Assembly: GCA_964645005.1 (NCBI GenBank)
Contig: CAZXYS010000006.1
Location: 4,741-68,740 of the forward strand
DNA from: an uncultured Hyphomicrobiales bacterium
GTDB taxonomy: Bacteria; Bacteroidota; Ignavibacteria; Kapaibacteriales; UBA2268
DNA length: 64,000 bases
Direction: 5' to 3'
Numbering within the stretch: the first letter of the stretch is position 1; each line of letters begins with the position of its first letter. Both the position numbers and the translations under genes were made by a program. This document shows positions 45,233 through 63,841 of this stretch, piece by piece. The notes under the pieces are model-generated. The model was given only the letters and a program-made list of their open reading frames with translations. It searched no databases and had not been told where the DNA came from.

Positions 45233-45790
45233 GTGGTAAATATGAAAAAATTAATAGTTTTATTCTCGATTTTAGGCATACTCTTCCTGAGCGAATCAAT
45301 CGCTCAGGAAGAAAAAGCCACAAAAAAGAAGTTGGAAATCCAAAAGAAGGAACAGACTTCTGAAGAAAAGCCTGAAAAGGCAACAAAGAAGAAGTTGGAT
45401 TTCGAATCCATCAAGAAAAAACAAGAAAAAAGCACTGCTAAAAAAGTCACACCAAAACAGCCTTCAGGGAAAGAACCGGTCCTGGAACTCCGCCCCGGTG
45501 CTAAGAAACCTATACCCGGAGAAGTTGTTAGCTTAAAAGCTCTTGTTAGCGAATCTGAAGCTTCGATTAACGAAGGACAAGCCCGTTCACTCGTTAACGA
45601 TGGACAACCGCTGCTATTCAGGGATAAAAACGGCAACATCTACTGGGTTTACAATGTTTACGGTAAAATACCCTATGAAAAGATGATCAGCTATGCCGGT
45701 AAACAGTTTAGCATTGTCGGCGATGTCAGGGAAGTTAACGGAGTCAAAGTTATCGTTGCTTCCAAATACGTTAGCAGTTCGGTACATTAA
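45233..45790 (+). CDS. Secreted hypothetical protein with Lys/Glu-rich low-complexity linker and conserved C-terminal ~70-aa domain
   Basis: Signal peptide. Repeated EKATKKKL units. C-terminal domain is paralogous to 45828-46262 (...NGNIYWVYNVYG...VKVIVASKYV). Confidence 0.4.
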   Translation: MVNMKKLIVLFSILGILFLSESIAQEEKATKKKLEIQKKEQTSEEKPEKATKKKLDFESIKKKQEKSTAKKVTPKQPSGKEPVLELRPGAKKPIPGEVVSLKALVSESEASINEGQARSLVNDGQPLLFRDKNGNIYWVYNVYGKIPYEKMISYAGKQFSIVGDVREVNGVKVIVASKYVSSSVH

Positions 45791-45827: not shown

Positions 45828-46262
45828 ATGACTAATAAATTATTGATTCTCTTATCAATGATATTTATTCTCTTTGCCTTTACATTCTGCGGAGAAGGAG
45901 AAGAGAAAGAAAAACCGGAAGAACCGCAGACCGAAGAAATGCAGGAGCCTGAAACTTTAGAACCCGCAAAACCTGACTTCACTGAAACACCGCTGAAAGG
46001 AAAGGTTGTCTGTTTAACAAAAATGCTCATCGGCGAGGAAGAAACCGTTGATGTTGAAAAGGCAGTAAATCTGGCAAATAAAGGTTTCCCAGTGGTCGTG
46101 AAATCTCAGGATAACGGTGAGATCTATTTTATTTGTAATCCCGACGGCTCTTTTGCAGCAAAAAAACTTGCCCGGCATGCAGACGAGGAAATAGTTGAAG
46201 TATACGGGGAATACAAAGAAATCAAAGATTTGAAAGTAGTTCTGGCAAGTAAGATTCAGTAA
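45828..46262 (+). CDS. Secreted/lipoprotein hypothetical protein, paralog of 45233-45790 C-terminal domain
   Basis: Signal with Cys (FAFTFCGEG). Acidic linker. C-terminal ...NGEIYFICNPDG...LKVVLASKIQ aligns to the neighbour. Confidence 0.4.
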   Translation: MTNKLLILLSMIFILFAFTFCGEGEEKEKPEEPQTEEMQEPETLEPAKPDFTETPLKGKVVCLTKMLIGEEETVDVEKAVNLANKGFPVVVKSQDNGEIYFICNPDGSFAAKKLARHADEEIVEVYGEYKEIKDLKVVLASKIQ

Positions 46263-46322
46263 ACCTTCGACTCCGCTTAGGATGACCGAACCGTGTCAAA
46301 GTGAGCGGAGTCGAACTGTGAC
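46262..46322. repeat. Short palindromic repeat (family 2b, 'ttcgactccgctcaggatgac' type), left copy flanking GIY-YIG gene
   Basis: cttcgactccgcttaggatgac...gtgagcggagtcgaac. Related copies at 46645-46700, 57062-57125 and 59352-59425. Confidence 0.6.
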
Positions 46323-46342
46323 ATTATCAATTTCAGCAGGTA

Positions 46343-46579
46343 ATGAAAACTTATTGTGTCTATATTCTAATATGTTCAGATAATTTTTATTTTACCGGAG
46401 TTACAAATAATCCGGGAAAAAGAATTAATGAACGCAATTCTGGTTTGAGTGAGGATAAATATACTTTTTCAAGACGACCGGTTAAATTAGTTTTTTCTGA
46501 ATATTTTACGAATATAGATGATGCTATTAGACTCGAGAAGCAAATCAAAGGCTGGTCAAAAAAAAAGAAGCAGTTATAA
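46343..46579 (+). CDS. GIY-YIG nuclease-family small protein (YhbQ/UPF0213-like)
   Basis: 78 aa. CVYILICSDNFYFTGVTNNPGKRINERN (GIY...YIG-like) and RRPVKLVFSEYF...AIRLEKQIKGWSKKKK. Confidence 0.7.
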   Translation: MKTYCVYILICSDNFYFTGVTNNPGKRINERNSGLSEDKYTFSRRPVKLVFSEYFTNIDDAIRLEKQIKGWSKKKKQL

Positions 46580-46644
46580 ACAATGATTTTAAGACTTTAA
46601 AGACAGAATCTAAATGCAAAAATAAAACATATCACAAACATTAT

Positions 46645-46700
46645 AACAAGTAGTCATCCTTCGACTCCGCTCAGGATGACATCCTAAGATTCTGTCCTGG
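46645..46700. repeat. Short palindromic repeat (family 2b), right copy flanking GIY-YIG gene
   Basis: gtcatccttcgactccgctcaggatgac. Same orientation as the copy at 46262-46322. Confidence 0.6.
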
Positions 46701-46738
46701 CAGGATTTATATTATACAATCAGCAATTAGCAGGCACC

Positions 46739-54936: not shown

Positions 54937-57036
54937 TCATTCTCCCTTAGTATATTTATCCAAAAACTCGAAGAATTCCTTGCTCCATACGATAAATTCC
55001 TGCGGATGCGCAATGAAATGCGTCTCCTCAGGGAAATAGACCAGCTTCGACGGTATGTCTTTCACCTGCGCAACTGTAAATGCTTCCAGACTTTGAGTAT
55101 ACGGTACGCGGTAATCGTGTTCCCCCGTGCTGATCATTATAGGTGTATCCCATTTATCCGCATAAGTATGGGGTGAATGCTTTACGTATTGCTCTTTGTT
55201 TTTTTCTTTCCAGTAAGGTCCGCCGTATTCCCAGTTGGGGAACCATAATTCTTCGGTAGAGCCGTACATGCTTATGAAATCAAATACCCCGCAATGGGAA
55301 ACGAATGCCTTGAAGCGCCCATCGTGATTTCCAGCCAGCCAGAATACGGCATAACCGCCGGCGCTGGCTCCAACTGCACAGAGTTTTTCTTCGTCAATAT
55401 ATTTTTCTTTTTTCATTTCATCCGTTGCTGCCAGAATGTCCTCCATCGGCTGCCCGCCCCAGTCTAGGCTGATGGCGTCGTTCCATTCCTGCCCAAAGCC
55501 GGGAAGCCCGCGGCGGTTTGGCGCAACAACGACGTAACCATGGGAAGCCATCAAATACAGGTTCCAGCGATAATGGAATCGGGGCGTAATGGTTGACTGC
55601 GGTCCGCCCTGACAATATGTGATCATCGGATATTTTTCAGAGGGATTGAAATTTGGCGGATAGAGTACCCAGCAATGTACTTTCTTTCCGTCAGTGCTTT
55701 CGATCCATTTCTGCTCGACATTGACGGGATACAATTGTGCGAATTCAACTTCATTTATCTGCGTGACGGGTTTAATTTCTTCGGATTCAAGGTTCATCTT
55801 GTAGAATTCCACCGGGCGCTGGAATCGCTGGCGTCCGTAAATGATCTCTTTACCGCCGGGAGTTACGGATAGTCCGCCGCCATGGCGGTAGACACCGTCG
55901 GTGATTTTTTCCCATTTGCCGTCCGTAGTTACATTGTAGATCTGTATAGTACCTTCATCGCCGGCAGTGAAATAAAGTGAATTCCCATCCGGTGCCCAGG
56001 TGAATTCATATACCCATTGGTTGAGTGTTTTGGTCAGGTCGGTGATCTGACCTGTTTCGCGGTCGTAGATCATCAGACGGATCTTGTCAGCTTCAAAGCC
56101 GGCGCGGCGCTGGCTTGTGAAAGCGATGTAATCGCCGTCAGGTGAATAAAGCGGCGCCTTGTCAAAGCCGGGCATATCTTTTGTAATATTTTTAGTTTTA
56201 TTTTTTTCTATATCCACTATGTAAATATCAGAATTGGTGCTTTCGACAAAATTATCGGCTTTTTTGGATGTATAAGCTATTTCTTTGCCGTCGGGAGCCC
56301 AGCAGATCTCTTCTGCGCCGCCCCATGGTTTTAGCGGGGTGTCATATTTTTCATTGGGCATGAGATCTTTAGGTTCGCCGCCGTCAACAGGCTGGATGAA
56401 TAAATGGGAATACTTTTTATCTGTCCATTCGTCCCAGTGGCGCACAGGGAGATCCTCATAAATCCTAATGTTAGCTTTAGGATATTTGGGATATTTTTCG
56501 TCGAGTGATTTTTCGAGCTTGACTTCCGAAGTGAATGAATAATACTTGCCATCGGGAGAAAAGGCGAAGTTAGATATGCCGTTGGGCATGTCGGTGACTT
56601 TTTCAGGCTCGCCGTTGGGAAAATCCATAACGTAAGCCTGAGCATTGTCGCCGCGGGTAGATATAAATGCGATCTTCTTGCTGCCGGGCGACCATCGTGG
56701 ATTATAATCGTAGGCGTCGGATTTGGTGATCTTTTTCATTATACCGCCTTCGATTGGCGATGAGTAAATAAATTTGCTGAAAGAATTTTCCGTTATTTCA
56801 GGATAAGTCTTAACATAAATGATATTTTTCCCGCCGGGTGACAGCTGCAGATCGCTGAGACGGTGCATTGTCATTAAATTGAATGCAGTAAAAAGGTCTT
56901 TTGATATTTTATATTTGGCTGTTCCCGGGGCAGATTCCGTTTTTAATTTCTGGCAAAAAAGATTATTGCCAAAAAAAAAGATAATTGTTATTAAAACAAT
57001 TGCCGATATTTTTATTTTCATCTTTGTCTCCTTCAA
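54937..57036 (-). CDS. S9-family serine peptidase (prolyl oligopeptidase/acylaminoacyl-peptidase-like) with N-terminal beta-propeller
   Basis: Signal peptide. PD40/TolB-like propeller repeats (SPDGK, APDGK). C-terminal alpha/beta hydrolase with nucleophile GASAGGY and HD dyad (GEHDYRVP). Confidence 0.8.
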   Translation of the reverse strand: MKETKMKIKISAIVLITIIFFFGNNLFCQKLKTESAPGTAKYKISKDLFTAFNLMTMHRLSDLQLSPGGKNIIYVKTYPEITENSFSKFIYSSPIEGGIMKKITKSDAYDYNPRWSPGSKKIAFISTRGDNAQAYVMDFPNGEPEKVTDMPNGISNFAFSPDGKYYSFTSEVKLEKSLDEKYPKYPKANIRIYEDLPVRHWDEWTDKKYSHLFIQPVDGGEPKDLMPNEKYDTPLKPWGGAEEICWAPDGKEIAYTSKKADNFVESTNSDIYIVDIEKNKTKNITKDMPGFDKAPLYSPDGDYIAFTSQRRAGFEADKIRLMIYDRETGQITDLTKTLNQWVYEFTWAPDGNSLYFTAGDEGTIQIYNVTTDGKWEKITDGVYRHGGGLSVTPGGKEIIYGRQRFQRPVEFYKMNLESEEIKPVTQINEVEFAQLYPVNVEQKWIESTDGKKVHCWVLYPPNFNPSEKYPMITYCQGGPQSTITPRFHYRWNLYLMASHGYVVVAPNRRGLPGFGQEWNDAISLDWGGQPMEDILAATDEMKKEKYIDEEKLCAVGASAGGYAVFWLAGNHDGRFKAFVSHCGVFDFISMYGSTEELWFPNWEYGGPYWKEKNKEQYVKHSPHTYADKWDTPIMISTGEHDYRVPYTQSLEAFTVAQVKDIPSKLVYFPEETHFIAHPQEFIVWSKEFFEFLDKYTKGE

Positions 57037-57061: not shown

Positions 57062-57125
57062 CTTTGTCACAGTTCGACTCCGCTCACTGTAGCAGAGCCA
57101 GCCGCTCTAGGCAGAGTCGAAGGAA
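57062..57125. repeat. Short palindromic repeat (family 2b)
   Basis: gtcacagttcgactccgctcactgt...gagtcgaaggaag. Lies between the two S9 peptidase genes. Confidence 0.55.
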
Positions 57126-57170: not shown

Positions 57171-59237
57171 TCATGATTTATTCTTACAATATAGCTCGAG
57201 AAATCTGAAGAATTCCCTGTACCAGAGAATTTTTTCCTGGGGATGAGTTATCCAGTGGATCTCATCGGGATAAACAATGATACGGGAAGGAACATTGTTC
57301 ATCTGCGCTGCCGTGAAAGCCTCAAGGCTCTGTGTATAAGGCACGCGATAATCCTTTTCGCCGGTAATAATGAGTATTGGAGTATCCCAGTTCTTTACGA
57401 AACGGTGCGGGGAATTCTCGTCGTAGAATCTTTTGTGCTGGCGCTCCCAGTAAGGACCGCCATTATCCCATAGCGGGAACCACATTTCCTCAGTCGAACC
57501 GAATTTACTTTCCATATTGAACATACCGCAGTGTGAGACGAAGGTGCTGTAAAGCCCGTCGTCATTTCCTTCCAGGAAGAAGGCGGCATAGCCGCCTGCG
57601 CTTCCTCCGATGGCAGCGAGTCTTGTCTCATCGACATAAGGTTCTTTTGCGAGAGCTTTAGTGGCTGCCATGATGTCATCCATTGGCTGCCCGCCGTAAT
57701 CCATGCGTATGGAGTCGATCCATTTCTGTCCGAATCCCATGCAGCCGCGGCGGTTCGGAGCCAGCACTATATATCCTTCGGAAGCCATGGTCAGGAAATT
57801 CCAGCCGTAGCTAAAATAAGGAGTGACCGGCATCTGCGGTCCGCCCTGGCAGTAAGTTATCATTGGATATTTTTTGCTGGGATCAAAATTCGGGGGGTAT
57901 ACAACCCAGCAATGAACATTGGCGCTGTCGGTAGAGGTTATCCAGCGTGCTTCCACTTTGCCTATGTCAATGTTTTTATAAGCGTCGTCATTTAAATGAG
58001 TGATTTGTTTCATCGTGCCGGTGGATGTATTCATGGCGTACAACTCAGTCGGGTGCATGTAATCTTCGCGGCTTAAGATGACTGTATTACCGTCGGGGGT
58101 AACCTCAAGAGCTCTTGCGGCATGGTAATAGCTGCCTTTTGTTACCACTTTGGCTGTGCCGCTCCTTGTTATATGCCATAGCTGGGTAGTGCCGTCATTA
58201 TTTCCGGCAGAAAAATACAGTGCATCGCTGCGTGGTGTCCATGCCATAGTTCCGACATGCTGATCTACATCTTTGGAGAGTTCGCCGATTCTGCTGCTGC
58301 TTCTGGTGTGCAGCATTAATCTGACCCGGTCGGATTCATAACCTGCGCGTTTCTGGCTGTGGAATGCTATATAATTACCGTTGGGGGGATATACCGGATA
58401 TTTGTCGAATCCGGGCATTCCCTGAGTGATATTCTTTGCCTTGCCGCCGTAAACCGGTACTACGTATATATCGGAATTGGTACTGGTTTCGAAATCACTA
58501 ACTTTCTTGCAGGTATAAGCGATCTCGGTGCCGTTAGGTGACCAGGCAATCTGTTCATGCCCGCCGAAAGGGACGAGCGGAGTGTCGAATTTTTCCATTT
58601 CCATGAGGTCGCGGGGTTCGCCTCCTTCGGCAGGGATCACGAAAAGATGTCTGTATTTCTCGTCGATGTAGTGGTCCCAGTGTCTGATCGGCAGGTCATC
58701 GTAGATATAAGCATTGACATCCGGCAGATCTTTGTGAGTTTCATGGATAGTCTGCTCGAGTTTTACATCCGAACAGAAAGCAAGATGCTTGCCATCGGGG
58801 GACCATGAAAGAAATGATACGCCATTTTCCATATTGGTTATCTTACGGGGTTCGCCGCCGTCCATATCCATTATGTAAACCTGAGGTTTACCGTCGCGGT
58901 CGGAGATGAACGCAACTTTATCCGCTTTGGGTGACCAGACGGGGTTGTAATTATGGTCACCTGTTCTGGTTAGTTGGATAGCTTCGCCGCCTGAGACGGG
59001 CTGCATAAACACCTGCTTTGTATAAGTATTATTTTCAAAATCGGGGAATGTAACGGTATAAAGGAGTTTCTTCCCGTCCTGCGAGATGTTAACATCACTG
59101 ATCCTTTTGAGAGAAAGTAATTTCTCAGGGGTGAGGATTTCGCTCGTTAATAAGCGAGGCACTATTATTAGCGCTATTACGAATATGAATAATTTTGACT
59201 TCATTGTCCAAATCCTTATAATGTTTAAAATTTTCAA
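57171..59237 (-). CDS. S9-family serine peptidase, tandem paralog of 54937-57036
   Basis: Same architecture. GGSAGGY nucleophile, GEKDYRVP. Long colinear blocks shared with the paralog (YPMITYCQGGPQ, TYVVLAPNRRG-like). Confidence 0.8.
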   Translation of the reverse strand: MKILNIIRIWTMKSKLFIFVIALIIVPRLLTSEILTPEKLLSLKRISDVNISQDGKKLLYTVTFPDFENNTYTKQVFMQPVSGGEAIQLTRTGDHNYNPVWSPKADKVAFISDRDGKPQVYIMDMDGGEPRKITNMENGVSFLSWSPDGKHLAFCSDVKLEQTIHETHKDLPDVNAYIYDDLPIRHWDHYIDEKYRHLFVIPAEGGEPRDLMEMEKFDTPLVPFGGHEQIAWSPNGTEIAYTCKKVSDFETSTNSDIYVVPVYGGKAKNITQGMPGFDKYPVYPPNGNYIAFHSQKRAGYESDRVRLMLHTRSSSRIGELSKDVDQHVGTMAWTPRSDALYFSAGNNDGTTQLWHITRSGTAKVVTKGSYYHAARALEVTPDGNTVILSREDYMHPTELYAMNTSTGTMKQITHLNDDAYKNIDIGKVEARWITSTDSANVHCWVVYPPNFDPSKKYPMITYCQGGPQMPVTPYFSYGWNFLTMASEGYIVLAPNRRGCMGFGQKWIDSIRMDYGGQPMDDIMAATKALAKEPYVDETRLAAIGGSAGGYAAFFLEGNDDGLYSTFVSHCGMFNMESKFGSTEEMWFPLWDNGGPYWERQHKRFYDENSPHRFVKNWDTPILIITGEKDYRVPYTQSLEAFTAAQMNNVPSRIIVYPDEIHWITHPQEKILWYREFFRFLELYCKNKS

Positions 59238-59351: not shown

Positions 59352-59425
59352 GTAGTTATTGTCACACTTCGACTTTGCTAAGTGTGACCTGCTGCTGTTA
59401 TCCTGAGCGAAGTCGAAGGTTGGCA
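59352..59425. repeat. Short palindromic repeat (family 2b)
   Basis: gtcacacttcgactttgctaagtgtgac...tatcctgagcgaagtcgaagg. Confidence 0.55.
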
Positions 59426-59593
59426 AAAGAAAAATAAACAAATATGACTTTTGGGAATATCTTTTTACTCAGCCTCTTGTTGATCAATATACCCCTTAAA
59501 TAAAAATTGCCTCCCAAAGGAGGCATTCTTTATTGCTTTTTTAATTTTTTTCGGAAATATTAATACTTATTAACTTAACCCAGTTAATGATCC

Positions 59594-60067: not shown

Positions 60068-63000
60068 ATGAAAATTATTAAAACTCTGATAATAATACCC
60101 CTTGCTTTCATTGCAATTATAATTAATTGTTATGGACAGAACTCACTGACAGTTTTCGACTATGATCAATCTAACTATCCAAATATCAGAGCATTGTTTT
60201 ATGCTTTCGATGAAAATTCGGGAATAATAAAGAGTCTATCGGCAGGGGACTTCAATATATCGGATAATGGTGTCTCAGTGCCTGCTGCCAATGTTGAGTG
60301 TCCGGGAACAAATGAGGAGCATGCAAATTCAGTAGTCATTGCTTTCGACCTTGCTCTGAATAATTACGAGGGAGGTACTACCAATTTTAAAGCGGCGCAG
60401 TTGCTAGGGAAAGAGCTCATCGAGCGGCTGGATCTCGATACCTCGGAGTGCGCTGTAACAAGTTTTGATTATATAAGCTATCTGAACCAGGAATTCACAT
60501 CAGATCCGGACATGCTTTTTAGAGCTATAGATTCCCTGCCTTCGGCGAGAGGCTCTTATTTTGATAAAGGATTGCTTTCATTGCCGGCAGGAGCTATACC
60601 TGTTGCTGAGAAAGGTGACGACGAGAAGTCCATTATTCTGATAACCGATGGAATAGGCGCTGTGAATGTGGACAGCGTAGTTGCTCAGGCAGCAAAAAGC
60701 AATGTCAGACTATTTACAATTGGACTGGGAAATGAACTGCCCGATGGTTTAAAAAGTGTCTCAGAACAGAGCGGCGGCAGATGGGTGGAAAACATTCAAC
60801 CGCAGCAGGATATGAGCAGTACCGCGGCGATATTACGTGCGTTTATGCAGGGGAGTCAGCCCTGTGAATTGACGTGGAACAGTCCGCTGGATTGCGATGA
60901 TGAGCATTTTGTTGAAATTGAAATTCCTTCACGATCCGTATCCTCGACATTCACATATTCAGTGCCGGAAGGTAACAAACCATATATAGAAGCCCGCCCG
61001 TCGAACATTGCTTTTAAAGCGATTTTGCATCCGGCGACTGAGGTCAGGAGTGTCTTCATTACCGCGCGTTATGCGGATATACATATTGACAGTATGAAAG
61101 TTACGGATACATCCAATAAATTTTCGATAGTTTCCGGGACAGAATTAGAAGATTATACTCTGAAAAAAGATGCTCAGCATGAAGTAAAAGTGAAATTCAC
61201 ACCGGTAGAAGGTGATTCAGCTCTGATATTTTCAAAATTGATAATTTATTCTAACGCCTGCTTCGGTGAAGAAATTAGAATGACAGCAGGTTTCCCGAAC
61301 CGACCGCCCCGTAATAAGACCATTGAGATTGTGTCGCCCAATGGCGGGGAGACATTGTTCGCTGGTGATACGGCTGCAGTAAAATGGGACGGATTGCTGG
61401 AAAGAGATGTCATTCTTCTTGAATATACTACTGATAATGGTCAGTCATGGGATACGCTCGCCAAAGACGTTAACGGATTAAAATATAATTGGAAAGTGCC
61501 GGATGAATATAGTGATTCATGCTATGTTCGTGCTGTTCAGTTGTGGCCCAACAATGTCGGAAAAACTATGGACCTCAGACATTATCGGGCTGTTAACTCC
61601 GCATTTTTCAATAGTGATCAGAATCTGGTAGTTACATCATGTAAAGATAAAATGGGGCGCCTCTGGAATGCAAATAACGGCAAAGAATTAGTAAGGTATA
61701 AAGGGCACACCGATGAGGTCCTGTGGGCGGAATTCAGTCCGGATGACCAATTAGTTGTAACCGCAAGCTCTGACAGCACTGCAAAGATCTGGAAACGGGA
61801 AACGGGTGAACTGCTATATACATTATCAGGTCATGAAGGGGAAGTCAGATCAGCCTGTTTCAGCCCTGACGGCGAAAAGGTGCTTACCACAAGCGCCGAT
61901 AGGACAGCTATTCTCTGGGATGCGGAAACCGGTGAACAGATCAAAGTTCTGCTGTCTTCCGATAAACCATTGTACTTTGCCTGTTTTGATCCCGCAGGCG
62001 AAAAAGCAGTTATATCCGGTGTTGGAAAGTATGTGAAAGTATTGAAGGTTGAAGATAGTGAAGTTGTCAGCGAATTCGATACCGAATTGGATTTCAATAT
62101 AATGTCCCATGTAAATTACAGCCCTGATGGCAGCAGGTTGGCAGCATCAAGCCAGATAGGACCAACAATTATTTGGGATGTGACAACTGAACAAAAGATA
62201 CTGGAAGTAACCCACTTCGATTCTCTGGGGAATCCTTCGCCTATTTTATTCTCGTCATTTGACCAGACCGGCGATACGTTACTGACTGCCGGCTTTGACA
62301 ACAAGATAAGAATGTGGCATGTCCATCAGAATACGTCCGAACCGATACTGACTTTTGAAGAGCACACAAGCTCTGTAAAGTCCGCAGTGTTCAATTTTGA
62401 CGGGATGCGTGTACTAACGGCAAGTTCGGATTCTACAGCAAAGATTTGGAACAGGGCTCAGCGCGACCTGCAAACTGACAGATCGGACGACAGATTCAGT
62501 ATAGCGAAAGCCGAGGCAATAGCCTTCAATGTGGATTTTGATAAAGTATTGATGGGAGAAGTTGTAGATACTCTTGTAAGTGTATTTGCCGTCAATACAA
62601 CAAAATATCCGTTTATGGTCAGAAATATTGAGATCCAAAGTGATGATACCGGAGATTTTTCAATTCTTGGTGATAATGAACCTTATGTATTGCAGCCTGG
62701 GGACACCTCATCGATTGAACTTCGCTTCGAACCACAACTGGTTGGAACGAGGAATGCACGAATAGTGATAACATATCCCAACGGTACTGCCGAAGCTGAA
62801 TTGACAGGCGAAGGGATTTATCCGGATCTACTTGCAACCAACAAGTATATTTACTTCAGAGAGATTGAACTGGGTGATTTCAAGGATTCTGTTGTCAGCG
62901 CTATTGTACAAAATAAAAGTGGTACAGCTCTACAGGTGACGGAGATCAATATTCTTGGTCCTGATACGGAGCATTTTGACATTATATCAGGCGGTCAAGG

Positions 63001-63841
63001 ATTCACTCTTGCACCAAATGACAGTCATGAAATGACGCTGCGCTTCACACCTGAAAAACTTGGCAGATTGAACAGCCAGCTTCAATTTTTACATACAGGC
63101 AAAGAGAAGGATACACGTGTATTTCTTTTCGGCGAAGGTGTGCCTATGGTAGTCGATACGGCTACGATTGCGATTGATACGCTATTCAAAGCCTATCCCG
63201 GTGACGAAATACAGATGCCTATTTACATTAAGGATATCAGCTCCAGGGGTATACCGCCCAATGTGACAGGCTTTAATGCTGCGCTGAGGTTTAATTCCAC
63301 TTTGCTGGAACCTCTGCAGCCGCTCGATGTAGAAAATGATGAAATTGTAGGTACCGAGAGGATCATTACTATGAATCTGCCTCTTGATGAAGACAATGAT
63401 GGTATCCTGACTACCATTAACTTTAAAGTGGGATTGGGAAATGACACTACATCCCCTATTATTTTGGAGAACATTGCGCCGATCGGCAGCGGCAAAATGA
63501 TAATTTACCGCGAGTTAGGCACTTTCAATCTTCTCGGTGTCTGTCATGAAGGGGGCGCCCGGCTATTTGATTCGGAAGGCAGAATATCCCTAATGCATAA
63601 TTACCCCAATCCATTTGAGGAATCAACGACGATCGAGTTTGAAACTGCCGAGAAGGGCATAACAAAGCTGTATATAACCGATATGATGGGAAATACTGTC
63701 AGAACTATTGTAAACGAGAAGCTTGAACCGGGGCAGCACCGCATCAGCATAGATTCAAGGGGTCTGCCGTCCGGTGTATACTTCTACAACCTAAAGACGC
63801 CGACTGTGGTTATTACCAGAAGGATGCATATAGAGAGGTAG
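60068..63841 (+). CDS. Giant secreted vWA - WD40 propeller - Ig-like repeat protein with T9SS C-terminal sorting domain
   Basis: Signal peptide. vWA-like segment (VVIAFDLALNNY...IILITDGIG). At least 7 WD40 repeats (GHTDEVLWAEFSPDDQLVVTASSDSTAKIW, GHEGEVRSACFSPDGEKVLTTSADRTAILW, ...). C-terminal Ig/ASH-like domains. NYPNPFEESTTIEFE...GVYFYNLK matches a T9SS CTD. Confidence 0.75.
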   Translation: MKIIKTLIIIPLAFIAIIINCYGQNSLTVFDYDQSNYPNIRALFYAFDENSGIIKSLSAGDFNISDNGVSVPAANVECPGTNEEHANSVVIAFDLALNNYEGGTTNFKAAQLLGKELIERLDLDTSECAVTSFDYISYLNQEFTSDPDMLFRAIDSLPSARGSYFDKGLLSLPAGAIPVAEKGDDEKSIILITDGIGAVNVDSVVAQAAKSNVRLFTIGLGNELPDGLKSVSEQSGGRWVENIQPQQDMSSTAAILRAFMQGSQPCELTWNSPLDCDDEHFVEIEIPSRSVSSTFTYSVPEGNKPYIEARPSNIAFKAILHPATEVRSVFITARYADIHIDSMKVTDTSNKFSIVSGTELEDYTLKKDAQHEVKVKFTPVEGDSALIFSKLIIYSNACFGEEIRMTAGFPNRPPRNKTIEIVSPNGGETLFAGDTAAVKWDGLLERDVILLEYTTDNGQSWDTLAKDVNGLKYNWKVPDEYSDSCYVRAVQLWPNNVGKTMDLRHYRAVNSAFFNSDQNLVVTSCKDKMGRLWNANNGKELVRYKGHTDEVLWAEFSPDDQLVVTASSDSTAKIWKRETGELLYTLSGHEGEVRSACFSPDGEKVLTTSADRTAILWDAETGEQIKVLLSSDKPLYFACFDPAGEKAVISGVGKYVKVLKVEDSEVVSEFDTELDFNIMSHVNYSPDGSRLAASSQIGPTIIWDVTTEQKILEVTHFDSLGNPSPILFSSFDQTGDTLLTAGFDNKIRMWHVHQNTSEPILTFEEHTSSVKSAVFNFDGMRVLTASSDSTAKIWNRAQRDLQTDRSDDRFSIAKAEAIAFNVDFDKVLMGEVVDTLVSVFAVNTTKYPFMVRNIEIQSDDTGDFSILGDNEPYVLQPGDTSSIELRFEPQLVGTRNARIVITYPNGTAEAELTGEGIYPDLLATNKYIYFREIELGDFKDSVVSAIVQNKSGTALQVTEINILGPDTEHFDIISGGQGFTLAPNDSHEMTLRFTPEKLGRLNSQLQFLHTGKEKDTRVFLFGEGVPMVVDTATIAIDTLFKAYPGDEIQMPIYIKDISSRGIPPNVTGFNAALRFNSTLLEPLQPLDVENDEIVGTERIITMNLPLDEDNDGILTTINFKVGLGNDTTSPIILENIAPIGSGKMIIYRELGTFNLLGVCHEGGARLFDSEGRISLMHNYPNPFEESTTIEFETAEKGITKLYITDMMGNTVRTIVNEKLEPGQHRISIDSRGLPSGVYFYNLKTPTVVITRRMHIER

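What the first reader, a model, noticed from the sequence alone, without database searches (positions are those of the whole stretch)
46262..46700. GIY-YIG minigene bracketed by same-orientation copies of a palindromic repeat: possible mobile cassette
A 78-aa YhbQ-like GIY-YIG nuclease gene (46343-46579) is flanked 20 bp upstream and 65 bp downstream by copies of the ttcgactccgctcaggatgac repeat, in the same orientation. Further copies of this repeat occur at 57062-57125 and 59352-59425. Free-standing GIY-YIG ORFs are classic homing or selfish elements. Direct repeats flanking it suggest insertion, or recombination-mediated gain or loss, of a small cassette between two unrelated genes (a secreted protein and an AI-2E transporter).
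Basis: partly seen in the sequence, partly recalled or inferred. Interest (0 to 1): 0.5.

Follow-up and report, generated by a model that had tools for sequence, protein, structure and literature searches.

The report
Dead GIY-YIG nuclease among cognate hairpin repeats
A broken copy of a tiny nuclease gene sits between copies of a hairpin-forming DNA repeat; in at least nine bacterial phyla this kind of gene is nearly always embedded in its own matching repeat family, which looks like an undescribed counterpart of the REP/RAYT repeat-and-enzyme partnership.

Summary

- **Broken gene.** The 78-aa ORF is the front of a frameshifted gene of about 103 aa (A9 run, 46558-46566). It also has unique substitutions at two strictly conserved residues, so it is probably inactive.
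- **Stop codon.** In the corrected frame the stop codon (46651-46653) overlaps the downstream repeat.
- **Upstream element.** It is two inverted units, so the units nearest the gene are inverted, not direct.

The flanking is not chance. In 80 homologous loci from nine phyla, about 80% of genes have a unit beside each end, against 5-7% of control ORFs (p about 1e-50). The unit is a hairpin with a covarying stem, a conserved core TTCGAC-NN-GCTCA and a TGAC tag. It lies outside genes and is often paired. Protein clades each have their own unit variant, even within one genus.

One orthologous intergenic site in Ignavibacteriales is filled in two lineages and empty in others, and two of the empty sites keep a single repeat pair.

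My best reading is a REP/RAYT-like partnership built on a minimal Slx1/YhbQ-type GIY-YIG nuclease. I found no description of it in the searchable literature or in Rfam. The mechanism is inferred, not shown.

The parts
46266..46286 (+). Repeat unit in forward (F) orientation, distal upstream: TTCGACTCCGCTTAGGATGAC.
   Evidence: Pattern match with 1 mismatch; covariance-model hit 46258-46290.
46295..46322 (-). Repeat unit in reverse (R) orientation, nearest the start codon. On the minus strand it reads GTCACAG-TTCGACTCCGCTCA-CTTTGAC. It ends 20 nt before the ATG.
   Evidence: covariance-model hit 46291-46323 on the minus strand; sequence read.
46266..46315 (.). The two upstream units together form a REPIN-like long palindrome.
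   Evidence: Inverted repeat I9. As single-stranded DNA, window 46260-46324 (which contains this pair) folds at -16.2 kcal/mol, z = -5.4, with 0 of 200 shuffles as good.
46343..46653 (+). Frameshifted gene for a minimal Slx1/YhbQ-type (UPF0213) GIY-YIG nuclease. The open frame as it stands is 46343-46579 (78 aa); the restored frame gives 103 aa. It has Phe17 in place of the Tyr of the YIG motif and Arg31 in place of a conserved His.
   Evidence: Pfam PF01541 E=5e-16. Frame analysis. Homologues of 95-111 aa align over up to 95-100% of the restored sequence. F17 is seen in 0 of 170 homologues and R31 in 0 of 174. PDB relatives 1zg2 and 1ywl.
46558..46566 (+). A9 homopolymer in the lysine-codon run; this is the frameshift site, and A10 would restore the frame.
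   Evidence: identical in assemblies L001 and L002. The homologous A-run is A6 or A7 polymorphic in another species, giving P0051 or the truncated P0073.
46653..46680 (+). Downstream unit in F orientation with a full 7-8 bp stem: GTCATCC-TTCGACTCCGCTCA-GGATGAC. Its first base is the G of the restored stop codon TAG (46651-46653).
   Evidence: Exact pattern match; best covariance-model hit in the window, 21.3 bits; DNA fold -6.2 kcal/mol; coordinates checked.
57065..57125 (.). Dispersed repeat pair between ORFs 54937-57036(-) and 57171-59237(-). The F unit is good; its R partner is degenerate.
59360..59425 (.). Dispersed repeat pair: F unit 59360-59392 (stem GTCACAC/GTGTGAC) and R unit 59393-59425. 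It lies between ORFs 57171-59237(-) and 60068-63841(+).
   Evidence: (I5). DNA fold of window 59352-59430, which contains the pair: -13.2 kcal/mol, z = -3.4.

Best explanation
The segment is a decayed member of a widespread partnership between two things. One is a clade of minimal (about 100 aa) Slx1/YhbQ-type GIY-YIG nucleases. The other is a dispersed family of REP-like hairpin repeats.

**Shown**
- The gene family is embedded in these repeats far more often than other genes are.
- The unit is an extragenic hairpin with a covarying stem, a conserved core and a TGAC tag, often arranged as inverted pairs.
- Each protein clade has its own unit variant.
- In the one replicon checked, units greatly outnumber genes.
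- The gene-plus-repeat block is present or absent at one orthologous site.

**Inferred**
- The nuclease recognises the hairpin, extruded from single-stranded DNA or as a cruciform. The hairpin probably forms on the strand reading GTCA-stem-YGAG...CGAR-stem, where the conserved core can continue the helix through tandem G.A pairs.
- It nicks at or near the conserved tag.
- The resulting recombination or repair copying spreads and maintains the units and, more rarely, moves the gene.
- This would work like RAYT with REP/REPINs, but with a different nuclease superfamily.

In this window the gene is inactive (frameshift plus Tyr17Phe and His31Arg) and only the repeats remain intact.
For: **Association**
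- A unit lies within 150 nt upstream of 60 of 75 GIY genes and within 120 nt downstream of 64 of 79.
- For 881 control ORFs in the same loci the figures are 5.4% and 6.8% (Fisher p about 1e-50).
- In at least 9 loci the gene's stop codon is the TGA of the unit's TGAC.
- Many homologues end in translated unit peptides such as HPSTGSG, FDSAQDD and LRLRSG.

**Hairpin**
- 73% of stem cells pair, against 47% in shuffles (0 of 500 as high).
- The covariation score is 0.63, against 0.04-0.16 in slid registers, and all five pairs show compensatory changes.
- In canonical units the three inner pairs are complementary in 85-95%, with at least 12 different triplet pairs.

**Dispersal**
- 92% of units lie outside long ORFs, and close R-F and F-R pairs are common.

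**Cognate specificity**
- All 25 loci of the clade whose proteins end LPNLAKKKF carry the V-type unit.
- The genus Flavobacterium holds M-, T- and V-types, each with its own protein clade.
- Next to V-clade genes I counted 0 M and 68 V units, although the rest of those loci hold 17 M and 96 V.

**Units per gene**
- One 395-kb Sphingomonas replicon has a single gene, with units on both sides.
- About 21 canonical units lie in 200 kb of that replicon that hold no gene.

**Gain and loss**
- At the mutA|mutB site, L083 and L111 are filled. L107 and L108 are empty but keep one R-F pair.
- The filled lineages are the most distant pair of the six by mutA (76.8% DNA identity), yet their GIY genes are 90.5% identical.
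- Identity at fourfold-degenerate sites is 0.81 for the GIY gene, against 0.49 and 0.62 in the flanking genes.

**Clade limits**
- Classical yazA and yhbQ lack the repeats, so the association belongs to particular clades.
Against: - No biochemical evidence links the protein to the repeat; co-location and co-variation are the whole case.
- Identical proteins sit at a single locus in all assemblies of two species, so there is no sign of ongoing gene movement.
- The orientation of flanking units is only a preference (R-gene-F in 27 of 55 loci). There are no clean terminal inverted repeats and no target-site duplication.
- Most stems have only 3-4 Watson-Crick pairs outside the core, so a stable hairpin depends on the inferred tandem G.A helix, which I did not test.
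- The synonymous-site argument rests on 27 sites.
- The 80 loci are the best tblastn hits to one clade, and unit detection used regular expressions and ORF proxies rather than annotated genes.
- Whether the window's genome holds an intact paralogue is unknown.
Confidence: 0.55

Rival explanations
1. Homing-type selfish gene. The GIY-YIG gene is a free-standing homing endonuclease whose target is the repeat unit. It cuts empty units and is copied into them by repair. The units themselves spread by some other means and are only landing pads.
For: - Presence/absence at one orthologous site, where the filled form has a unit duplicated on both sides of the gene (L111: R1-25 nt-gene-R2-27 nt-F) and empty forms keep one R-F pair.
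- The GIY gene is more similar between distant lineages than the flanking genes are.
- L083 and L111 share an excess of sites in the first 600 nt of mutB, which resembles a co-conversion tract (41:31 against 50:98, p=0.001).
- Five tandem identical copies in L003.
Against: - Units vastly outnumber genes: about 21 canonical units and no gene in 200 kb of a replicon.
- Extra gene copies are rare in 1.3 Mb of flanks.
- Identical proteins occupy only one locus.
- The protein is a bare domain of about 100 aa without the DNA-binding modules of known GIY-YIG homing enzymes.
- This reading does not explain how the units themselves multiplied.
Confidence: 0.2
2. Host hairpin-processing enzyme. The nuclease is a housekeeping, structure-specific enzyme, like Slx1 or SbcCD in spirit. 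It removes or resolves hairpins formed by a parasitic repeat family. Its gene is surrounded by units only because units accumulate there or regulate it.
For: - Stable single locus within species.
- Membership of the Slx1-like branch, whose eukaryotic members cut branched DNA (PMC1564403, read).
- Clade-specific matching of protein and unit would also fit an enzyme adapted to its substrate.
Against: - A housekeeping gene would not be patchily present or absent at one site among close relatives.
- It would not decay as in the window, nor carry on/off homopolymer alleles.
- It would not have its stop codon repeatedly fused to a unit.
- Nothing explains why units would pile up specifically at this gene's ends.
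Confidence: 0.1
3. RNA-level element. The units act in transcripts, as stabilising or processing hairpins or as small RNAs, and the GIY-YIG protein is an RNA-binding or RNA-cutting partner.
For: - A covarying stem and a conserved core with a possible tandem G.A motif would also suit an RNA.
- Units sit beside gene ends.
Against: - Units flank the gene mostly in inverted orientation, so the strand able to form the G.A helix is on opposite strands at the two ends.
- G.U-type pairs are rare and show no strand bias (11 GT against 21 AC among 627 stem cells).
- There is no T-run terminator signature.
- No Rfam family matches in the window or in 15 related loci.
- Every characterised member of the fold that I know of is a DNA nuclease.
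Confidence: 0.08
4. Coincidence. The repeat is a common intergenic element, and a small gene with two short intergenic flanks simply happens to lie between two copies.
For: Units are dispersed and extragenic and also occur at two other places in the window.
Against: - Only 5-7% of control ORF ends have a unit, against about 80% of GIY-YIG ends in 80 loci from nine phyla.
- Unit type tracks protein clade.
- The stop codon is built into the unit in many loci.
Confidence: 0.02

Closest known systems
REP / REPIN elements and their RAYT (REP-associated tyrosine transposase) genes
   Same: - Short extragenic palindromic units with a conserved tetranucleotide tag next to a variable stem.
- Units dispersed in many copies, often as inverted doublets that fold into long hairpins.
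- One or a few enzyme genes flanked by the units, with each enzyme clade matched to its own unit type.
- The enzyme gene sits at a stable locus within a species.
- (REP/RAYT properties as summarised in PMC3733652.)
   Different: - The enzyme is a GIY-YIG nuclease of about 100 aa, not an HUH Y1 transposase of the IS200/IS605 family.
- The tag is TGAC/GTCA, not GTAG.
- The unit has a conserved 13-14 nt core inside a short covarying stem, rather than a long stem with a small loop.
- No activity has been shown.
CGTC-tagged REPs (Di Nocera et al. 2013, PMC3733652), reported to lack a dedicated transposase
   Same: - An orphan class of tagged palindromic repeats reported in Alphaproteobacteria, Chlorobi, Bacteroidetes and other phyla.
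- In R orientation the present unit starts (T/C)GTC followed by a stem that opens with A...T.
- That paper notes TGTC variants of the tag and stems that begin with A-T pairs.
   Different: - CGTC REPs are described with 8-9 bp stems, 4-5 nt loops and a CCA tail.
- Here stems outside the core are mostly 3-4 bp, the core is 13-14 nt or carries an inner hairpin, and the tail is GAC(A).
- Whether the two classes are related was not tested.
Free-standing GIY-YIG homing endonuclease genes (for example the phage T4 Seg proteins, and I-TevI as the intron-borne prototype)
   Same: - The same catalytic superfamily.
- A small selfish-looking gene between unrelated genes, with patchy presence at one site.
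   Different: - There is no DNA-binding extension.
- The family is not phage-borne: only one weak hit in 2.9 million viral contigs.
- It belongs to the Slx1-like branch, not the UvrC/homing-enzyme branch (PMC1564403; PDB matches).
- The gene is coupled to a multicopy hairpin repeat rather than to a unique target in a conserved gene.
Classical stand-alone UPF0213 proteins: YhbQ (Enterobacteria), YazA (Bacillus), BH0048 and EF2693 (PDB 1zg2, 1ywl)
   Same: The same minimal fold and motifs. The family profile matches 1zg2 at E=7e-22 and 1ywl at E=5e-18.
   Different: - yazA overlaps trmNF and rsmI, and yhbQ abuts yhbP; neither has flanking repeats.
- The repeat-associated clades carry an extra conserved C-terminal helix (KKKEALI...L..LSK) and are patchily distributed.

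Membership tests
GIY-YIG superfamily, Slx1/YhbQ (UPF0213) branch | Match to the GIY-YIG catalytic domain model above its curated cut-off | tested here: met
   PF01541: 59.2 bits against a cut-off of 22.6, E=5e-16.
GIY-YIG superfamily, Slx1/YhbQ (UPF0213) branch | Sequence relationship to solved stand-alone UPF0213 proteins | tested here: met
   The family profile hits 1zg2 (BH0048) at 7e-22 and 1ywl (EF2693) at 5e-18, and no other PDB chains.
GIY-YIG superfamily, Slx1/YhbQ (UPF0213) branch | Intact reading frame and conserved motif residues (Tyr of YIG, conserved His, Arg, Glu) | tested here: not met
   Frameshift at the A9 run. F17 where 98% of 170 homologues have Y, and R31 where 174 of 174 have H. 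R27 and E65 are kept.
REP/REPIN-RAYT system | Short extragenic palindromic units with a conserved tag, dispersed, often as inverted pairs | tested here: met
   Unit logo and TGAC tag; covarying stem; 92% of units outside long ORFs; close R-F and F-R pairs; about 21 canonical units in 200 kb of one replicon.
REP/REPIN-RAYT system | The enzyme gene is itself flanked by the units, and enzyme clades match unit types | tested here: met
   About 80% of gene ends against 5-7% of controls. Clade-to-type match. 0 M against 68 V units next to V-clade genes.
REP/REPIN-RAYT system | The enzyme is an HUH Y1 transposase of the IS200/IS605 family, and the tag is GTAG | tested here: not met
   The protein is GIY-YIG, and the tag is TGAC/GTCA. 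So this is not a member, although it is organised like one.
Free-standing homing endonuclease gene | Presence/absence of the gene at the same site in relatives, with the empty site intact | tested here: inconclusive
   Not testable for the window's locus, which has no close relatives and no synteny. Met for a family member at the mutA|mutB site of Ignavibacteriales.
Free-standing homing endonuclease gene | Extra DNA-binding module that gives a long specific target | tested here: not met
   Proteins are 95-111 aa and the single domain covers nearly all of that length.
Free-standing homing endonuclease gene | Site-specific cleavage of the empty allele | not testable with these tools
   Needs an enzyme assay.
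IS element or MITE with terminal inverted repeats | Defined terminal inverted repeats, target-site duplication, and several identical copies at different loci | tested here: not met
   Flank orientation is variable. No duplication is visible at the filled versus empty sites beyond the units themselves. Identical proteins occur at one locus only.
CGTC-tagged REP superfamily | CGTC/TGTC tag, 8-9 bp stem opening with A-T pairs, 4-5 nt loop, CCA tail | tested here: inconclusive
   The tag resembles (T)GTC-A, but stem and loop sizes and the tail differ. Definition taken from PMC3733652.
Any curated RNA family (Rfam 15) | Covariance-model match at the gathering score | tested here: not met
   No hit on any unit in the window, in 7 V-type loci or in 8 M-type or alphaproteobacterial loci. 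Only chance-level matches at a relaxed threshold.

The most novel reading that the evidence does not exclude
Minimal Slx1/YhbQ-type GIY-YIG nucleases are the dedicated enzymes of a large, so far unrecognised superfamily of REP-like elements. These elements are GTCA/TGAC-tagged hairpins with a conserved YGAG...CGAR core. They occur in Bacteroidota, Ignavibacteriota, Nitrospirota, Nitrospinota, Alphaproteobacteria and other phyla. If so, this is a second, independently evolved repeat-and-nuclease symbiosis alongside REP/RAYT. It might also supply the missing enzyme for the orphan CGTC-tagged REPs.
Probability: 0.35. Interest if true: 0.85.

Novelty: new variant of a known kind. Interest (0 to 1): 0.66.

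Why it matters
REP-type repeats are among the most abundant non-coding elements in bacterial genomes. Only one class, the GTAG-tagged REPs, has a known partner enzyme (RAYT). Other classes are described as orphans (PMC3733652).

If a GIY-YIG nuclease of about 100 aa is the partner of a hairpin repeat family found in at least nine phyla, four things follow:
- It would explain the origin of a very common repeat that annotators often translate into spurious protein tails such as FDSAQDD, PSTGSG and LRLRSG.
- It would give the large, function-less bacterial Slx1/YhbQ family a concrete substrate. That family has about 27,000 clusters at 50% identity.
- It would add a second, mechanistically different example of a vertically kept repeat-enzyme association.
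- It might yield a very small structure- and sequence-specific nickase.

For genome annotation, it flags these minigenes and their run-on tails as predictable artefact sites.

Tried and rejected
**Tests that gave nothing**
- **Syntenic empty-site test for the window's own locus.** The exact AI-2E transporter occurs only in two near-identical assemblies. The next homologue is 55% identical, and three such loci have different neighbours.
- **tRNA-like reading.** The TTCGA in the core looks like a T-loop, but ARAGORN finds no tRNA or tmRNA in the window, and the flanking bases do not make a T-arm.
- **Known RNA families.** Four Rfam searches matched no unit. That includes Flavobacteriaceae loci, where I wondered about the Flavo-1 motif.
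- **Terminator.** There is no T-run after the hairpins, and the scan finds none at the units.
- **Defence-system membership.** PADLOC gave only one sub-threshold hit, and NCBIfam has no specific family.
- **Phage origin.** One weak hit (34% identity) in the viral contig collection.

**Ideas rejected by reading the sequence**
- **Hammerhead-like core (CUGA...GAA).** The G8-A9 positions are not satisfied. I did no further test.

**Tests that gave an informative negative**
- **Recent transposition.** Identical proteins P0051 and P0012 each occupy one genomic context in 25 and 23 contigs.
- **Strand test for RNA versus DNA by wobble pairs.** 11 GT against 21 AC, not decisive.

**Literature**
- Ten full-text searches combined GIY-YIG with palindromic, REP, RAYT, REPIN, MITE, hairpin, YhbQ, UPF0213 and Flavobacteri.
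- None found a paper linking these genes to repeats.
- The 2006 superfamily survey (PMC1564403) treats the bacterial Slx1-like proteins as vertically inherited and does not mention repeats.
Full report
**1. What is in the window**

ORF 46343-46579 (+) is a GIY-YIG domain protein (Pfam PF01541, E=5e-16). A looser 12-mer search gives 12 matches, against 3.25 expected.

A covariance model built from units of other genomes returns six window units as its six best hits:
- two just upstream of the gene, 46258-46290 (+) and 46291-46323 (-);
- one at its 3' end, 46652-46684 (+);
- one at 57.07 kb, whose degenerate partner is seen only by pattern search;
- a pair at 59.36-59.43 kb.

The upstream pair folds as a long DNA hairpin (-16.2 kcal/mol, z = -5.4).

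**2. The gene is broken**

The 78-aa ORF ends inside the family's conserved C-terminal helix. One extra A in the A9 run (46558-46566) restores ...WSKKKEAVINNDFKTLKTESKCKNKTYHKHYNK and a stop at 46651-46653. Homologues are 95-111 aa and align over up to 95-100% of the restored sequence, C-terminus included. The A9 run is identical in two independent metagenome assemblies, so it is not a sequencing error.

The copy has Phe at the Tyr of the YIG motif (0 of 170 homologues share this). It has Arg at a His that is invariant in 174 homologues. I read it as a pseudogene. In the restored frame, the G of the stop codon is the first base of the downstream hairpin GTCATCC-TTCGACTCCGCTCA-GGATGAC (46653-46680).

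**3. The repeat unit**

I collected 776 units from the window and 80 related loci. The logo is nnn-TTCGAC-NN(N)-GCTCA-n'n'n'-TGAC(A).

- **Stem complementarity.** The three bases on each side of the core are complementary in 85-95% of canonical units. Shifted registers give 5-48%. At least twelve different triplet pairs occur.
- **Unfiltered test.** On 73 units not filtered for stem or tag, 73% of cells pair, against 47% in shuffles. The covariation score is 0.63, against 0.20 in shuffles and 0.04-0.16 in slid registers.
- **Stem length.** Stems extend to 7-9 bp in a minority of units.
- **Location.** Units are extragenic: 375 of 409 lie outside long ORFs, although about 80% of the sequence is ORF.
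- **Pairs.** Units often form close inverted pairs.

My own reading of the sequences, not tested, is as follows. In the opposite (R) orientation all variants share 5'-Y-G-A-G opposite 5'-C-G-A-R. That is a context known to favour tandem sheared G.A pairs. The conserved "loop" would then be a continued helix closed by a 5-6 nt loop or by an inner hairpin. The few variant positions behave like Watson-Crick pairs. Only one strand can form this helix.

**4. The association is family-wide and specific**

Eighty loci encoding homologues were fetched from one-genome-per-species contigs. They come mostly from Bacteroidota. Ignavibacteriota, Nitrospinota, Nitrospirota, Cloacimonadota, Patescibacteria, Vulcanimicrobiota, Chloroflexota and a Syntrophaceae genome are also represented.

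- **Enrichment.** A unit lies within 150 nt upstream of 60 of 75 genes and within 120 nt downstream of 64 of 79. For 881 control ORFs in the same loci the figures are 5.4% and 6.8% (p about 1e-50).
- **Stop codon.** In at least nine loci the stop codon is the TGA of the unit's TGAC.
- **Orientation.** The commonest arrangement is R-gene-F, an inverted flank (27 of 55 loci). All four combinations occur.
- **Protein tails.** Many database proteins of the family end in translated units such as HPSTGSG, FDSAQDD, LRLRSG and LRQAQDD.
- **Family size.** The wider protein family has 27,109 clusters at 50% identity with E<=1e-3, and 9,356 with E<=1e-10.

**5. Protein clades have their own unit types**

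- **V-type.** All 25 loci of the clade ending ...LPNLAKKKF carry a variant unit, GTCA-stem-GAGTG-[inner hairpin]-GTATCGA-stem.
- **One genus, three types.** Within Flavobacterium, three protein clades go with three unit types, M, T and V.
- **Immediate flanks.** Next to V-clade genes there are 0 M and 68 V units, although the rest of those loci hold 17 M and 96 V.
- **Alphaproteobacteria.** A Sphingomonas gene has an M-type F..R pair upstream and an F unit inside its 3' end. Two Methylobacterium genes are flanked by CCTCATCCTGAGG-[hairpin]-CTCGAAGGAGG units.
- **Another clade.** A different GIY-YIG clade on a Spirosoma plasmid sits between other GTCATCC...GGATGAC palindromes.
- **Classical genes lack repeats.** B. 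subtilis yazA and Enterobacter yhbQ have none.
- **Units per gene.** In the 395-kb Sphingomonas replicon there is one gene. About 21 canonical units lie in 200 kb that contain no gene.

**6. Evidence on mobility**

*Against recent movement.* Two proteins, P0051 and P0012, were found in 25 and 23 contigs, and each always sits between the same neighbours.

*For gain and loss.* In Ignavibacteriales the site between two methylmalonyl-CoA mutase genes takes several states:
- filled in L083 and L111;
- empty in L107 and L108, which retain one R-spacer-F pair;
- empty in L110, which has no unit;
- occupied by an unrelated small gene in L109.

L111 reads R1-25 nt-gene-R2 (overlapping the stop)-27 nt-F. 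L083 reads [R1-F1*]-80 nt-gene-[R2-F2].

By mutA, L083 is closest to the empty L107 (88.6% DNA identity) and furthest from the filled L111 (76.8%). Yet the two GIY genes are 90.5% identical. Identity at fourfold-degenerate sites is 0.81 for GIY (n=27), against 0.49 for mutA and 0.62 for mutB (p=0.005-0.03). L083 and L111 also share an excess of sites in the first 600 nt of mutB (p=0.001).

This points to independent gain or horizontal exchange by homologous recombination rather than to simple vertical descent. The numbers are small.

A Bacteroidales contig holds five tandem, 99.7-100% identical copies separated by variable arrays of a unit fragment. The family is essentially absent from viral contigs.

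**7. Mechanism**

*Shown:* the specific linkage, the hairpin covariation, the dispersal, the cognate matching, the many-units-per-gene ratio in one replicon, and the presence/absence polymorphism.

*Inferred:*
- The nuclease recognises and nicks the hairpin.
- This drives copying of units and, more rarely, of the gene.

The organisation parallels REP/REPIN-RAYT, whose properties are summarised in PMC3733652. The enzyme, however, belongs to the Slx1-like branch of GIY-YIG (PMC1564403; PDB 1zg2 and 1ywl). It therefore fails the defining RAYT features and cannot be filed as a member. A pure homing model, a host hairpin-processing role and an RNA-level role remain possible.

**8. Novelty**

Ten full-text searches and four Rfam searches found no description of this gene-repeat link (4, 23, 84, 91). 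The closest published repeat class is the CGTC-tagged REPs, which are explicitly said to lack a dedicated transposase. The present units share a (T/C)GTC-A start but differ in stem, loop and tail. I cannot exclude a description in journals outside the searchable library.

**9. Verdict**

The window holds an ordinary-looking, inactive remnant. It is a clear example of a broad and apparently undescribed association. The "direct repeats from insertion" reading and the classical homing-endonuclease analogy are not supported.

Noticed in passing
window 46558-46566; L083 4218-4224 compared with L121/L122: The frameshift-prone A-run in the lysine codons is polymorphic elsewhere. The Ignavibacteriaceae gene exists as A6 (P0051, 101 aa) and as A7 (P0073, 79 aa, 20 contigs) on otherwise identical DNA over the 130 nt compared. 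This may be a mutational hotspot, an on/off switch, or a site of transcriptional slippage.
   Followed up: partly
L003 7941-10312: Five tandem, 99.7-100% identical GIY-YIG genes in a Bacteroidales MAG. Each is followed by a variable-length array of a short tandem repeat (about 18 nt) derived from the unit (..GACTTCGCTCGCTCT..). This is either recent amplification or an assembly artefact.
   Followed up: partly
L109 5704-6075: The same mutA|mutB intergenic site that holds the GIY cassette in L083 and L111 holds a 123-aa 23S_rRNA_IVP (PF05635) gene in another Ignavibacteriales genome. The site seems to be a hotspot for small accessory genes.
   Followed up: no
L107 5652-5745, L110 5652-5740, L111 5652-5745: Another repeat follows the mutA stop codon in three genomes: GAACRCGGATGACACAG...CAGTGTC(A/C). 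It is unrelated to the GIY-associated unit.
   Followed up: no
window 45282-45312: A perfect 12-bp palindrome, CTTCCTGAGCGA-atcga-TCGCTCAGGAAG, lies inside the signal-peptide-coding part of ORF 45233-45790. It shares CCTGAGCG/CGCTCAGG with the repeat unit and may be a unit-derived fragment within a coding region.
   Followed up: no
L120 (Spirosoma oryzicola plasmid NZ_CP089542.1) 220-800: A different GIY-YIG clade (C-terminus ...GWRREKKEELINSMNPDWRFLDEI) is flanked by other GTCATCC...GGATGAC palindromes. One is a roughly 80-nt palindrome whose 31-nt arms (GTCATCCCGAGGAACGAGGGATCTTCGCGCG...) are perfectly complementary. The GTCA/TGAC-tagged hairpin association may therefore extend to further GIY-YIG clades.
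   Followed up: partly
L029 1-91 (-): A group II intron domain (Rfam RF02001, 64 bits) lies at the edge of a Bacteroidetes locus that is unusually rich in units (33 in 18 kb).
   Followed up: no
window 46674-46708: Downstream of the 3' unit and upstream of the AI-2E transporter gene there are two further small palindromes, GGATGACATCC and TCCTGGCAGGA. They could be operator-like sites or parts of a degenerate second unit.
   Followed up: no
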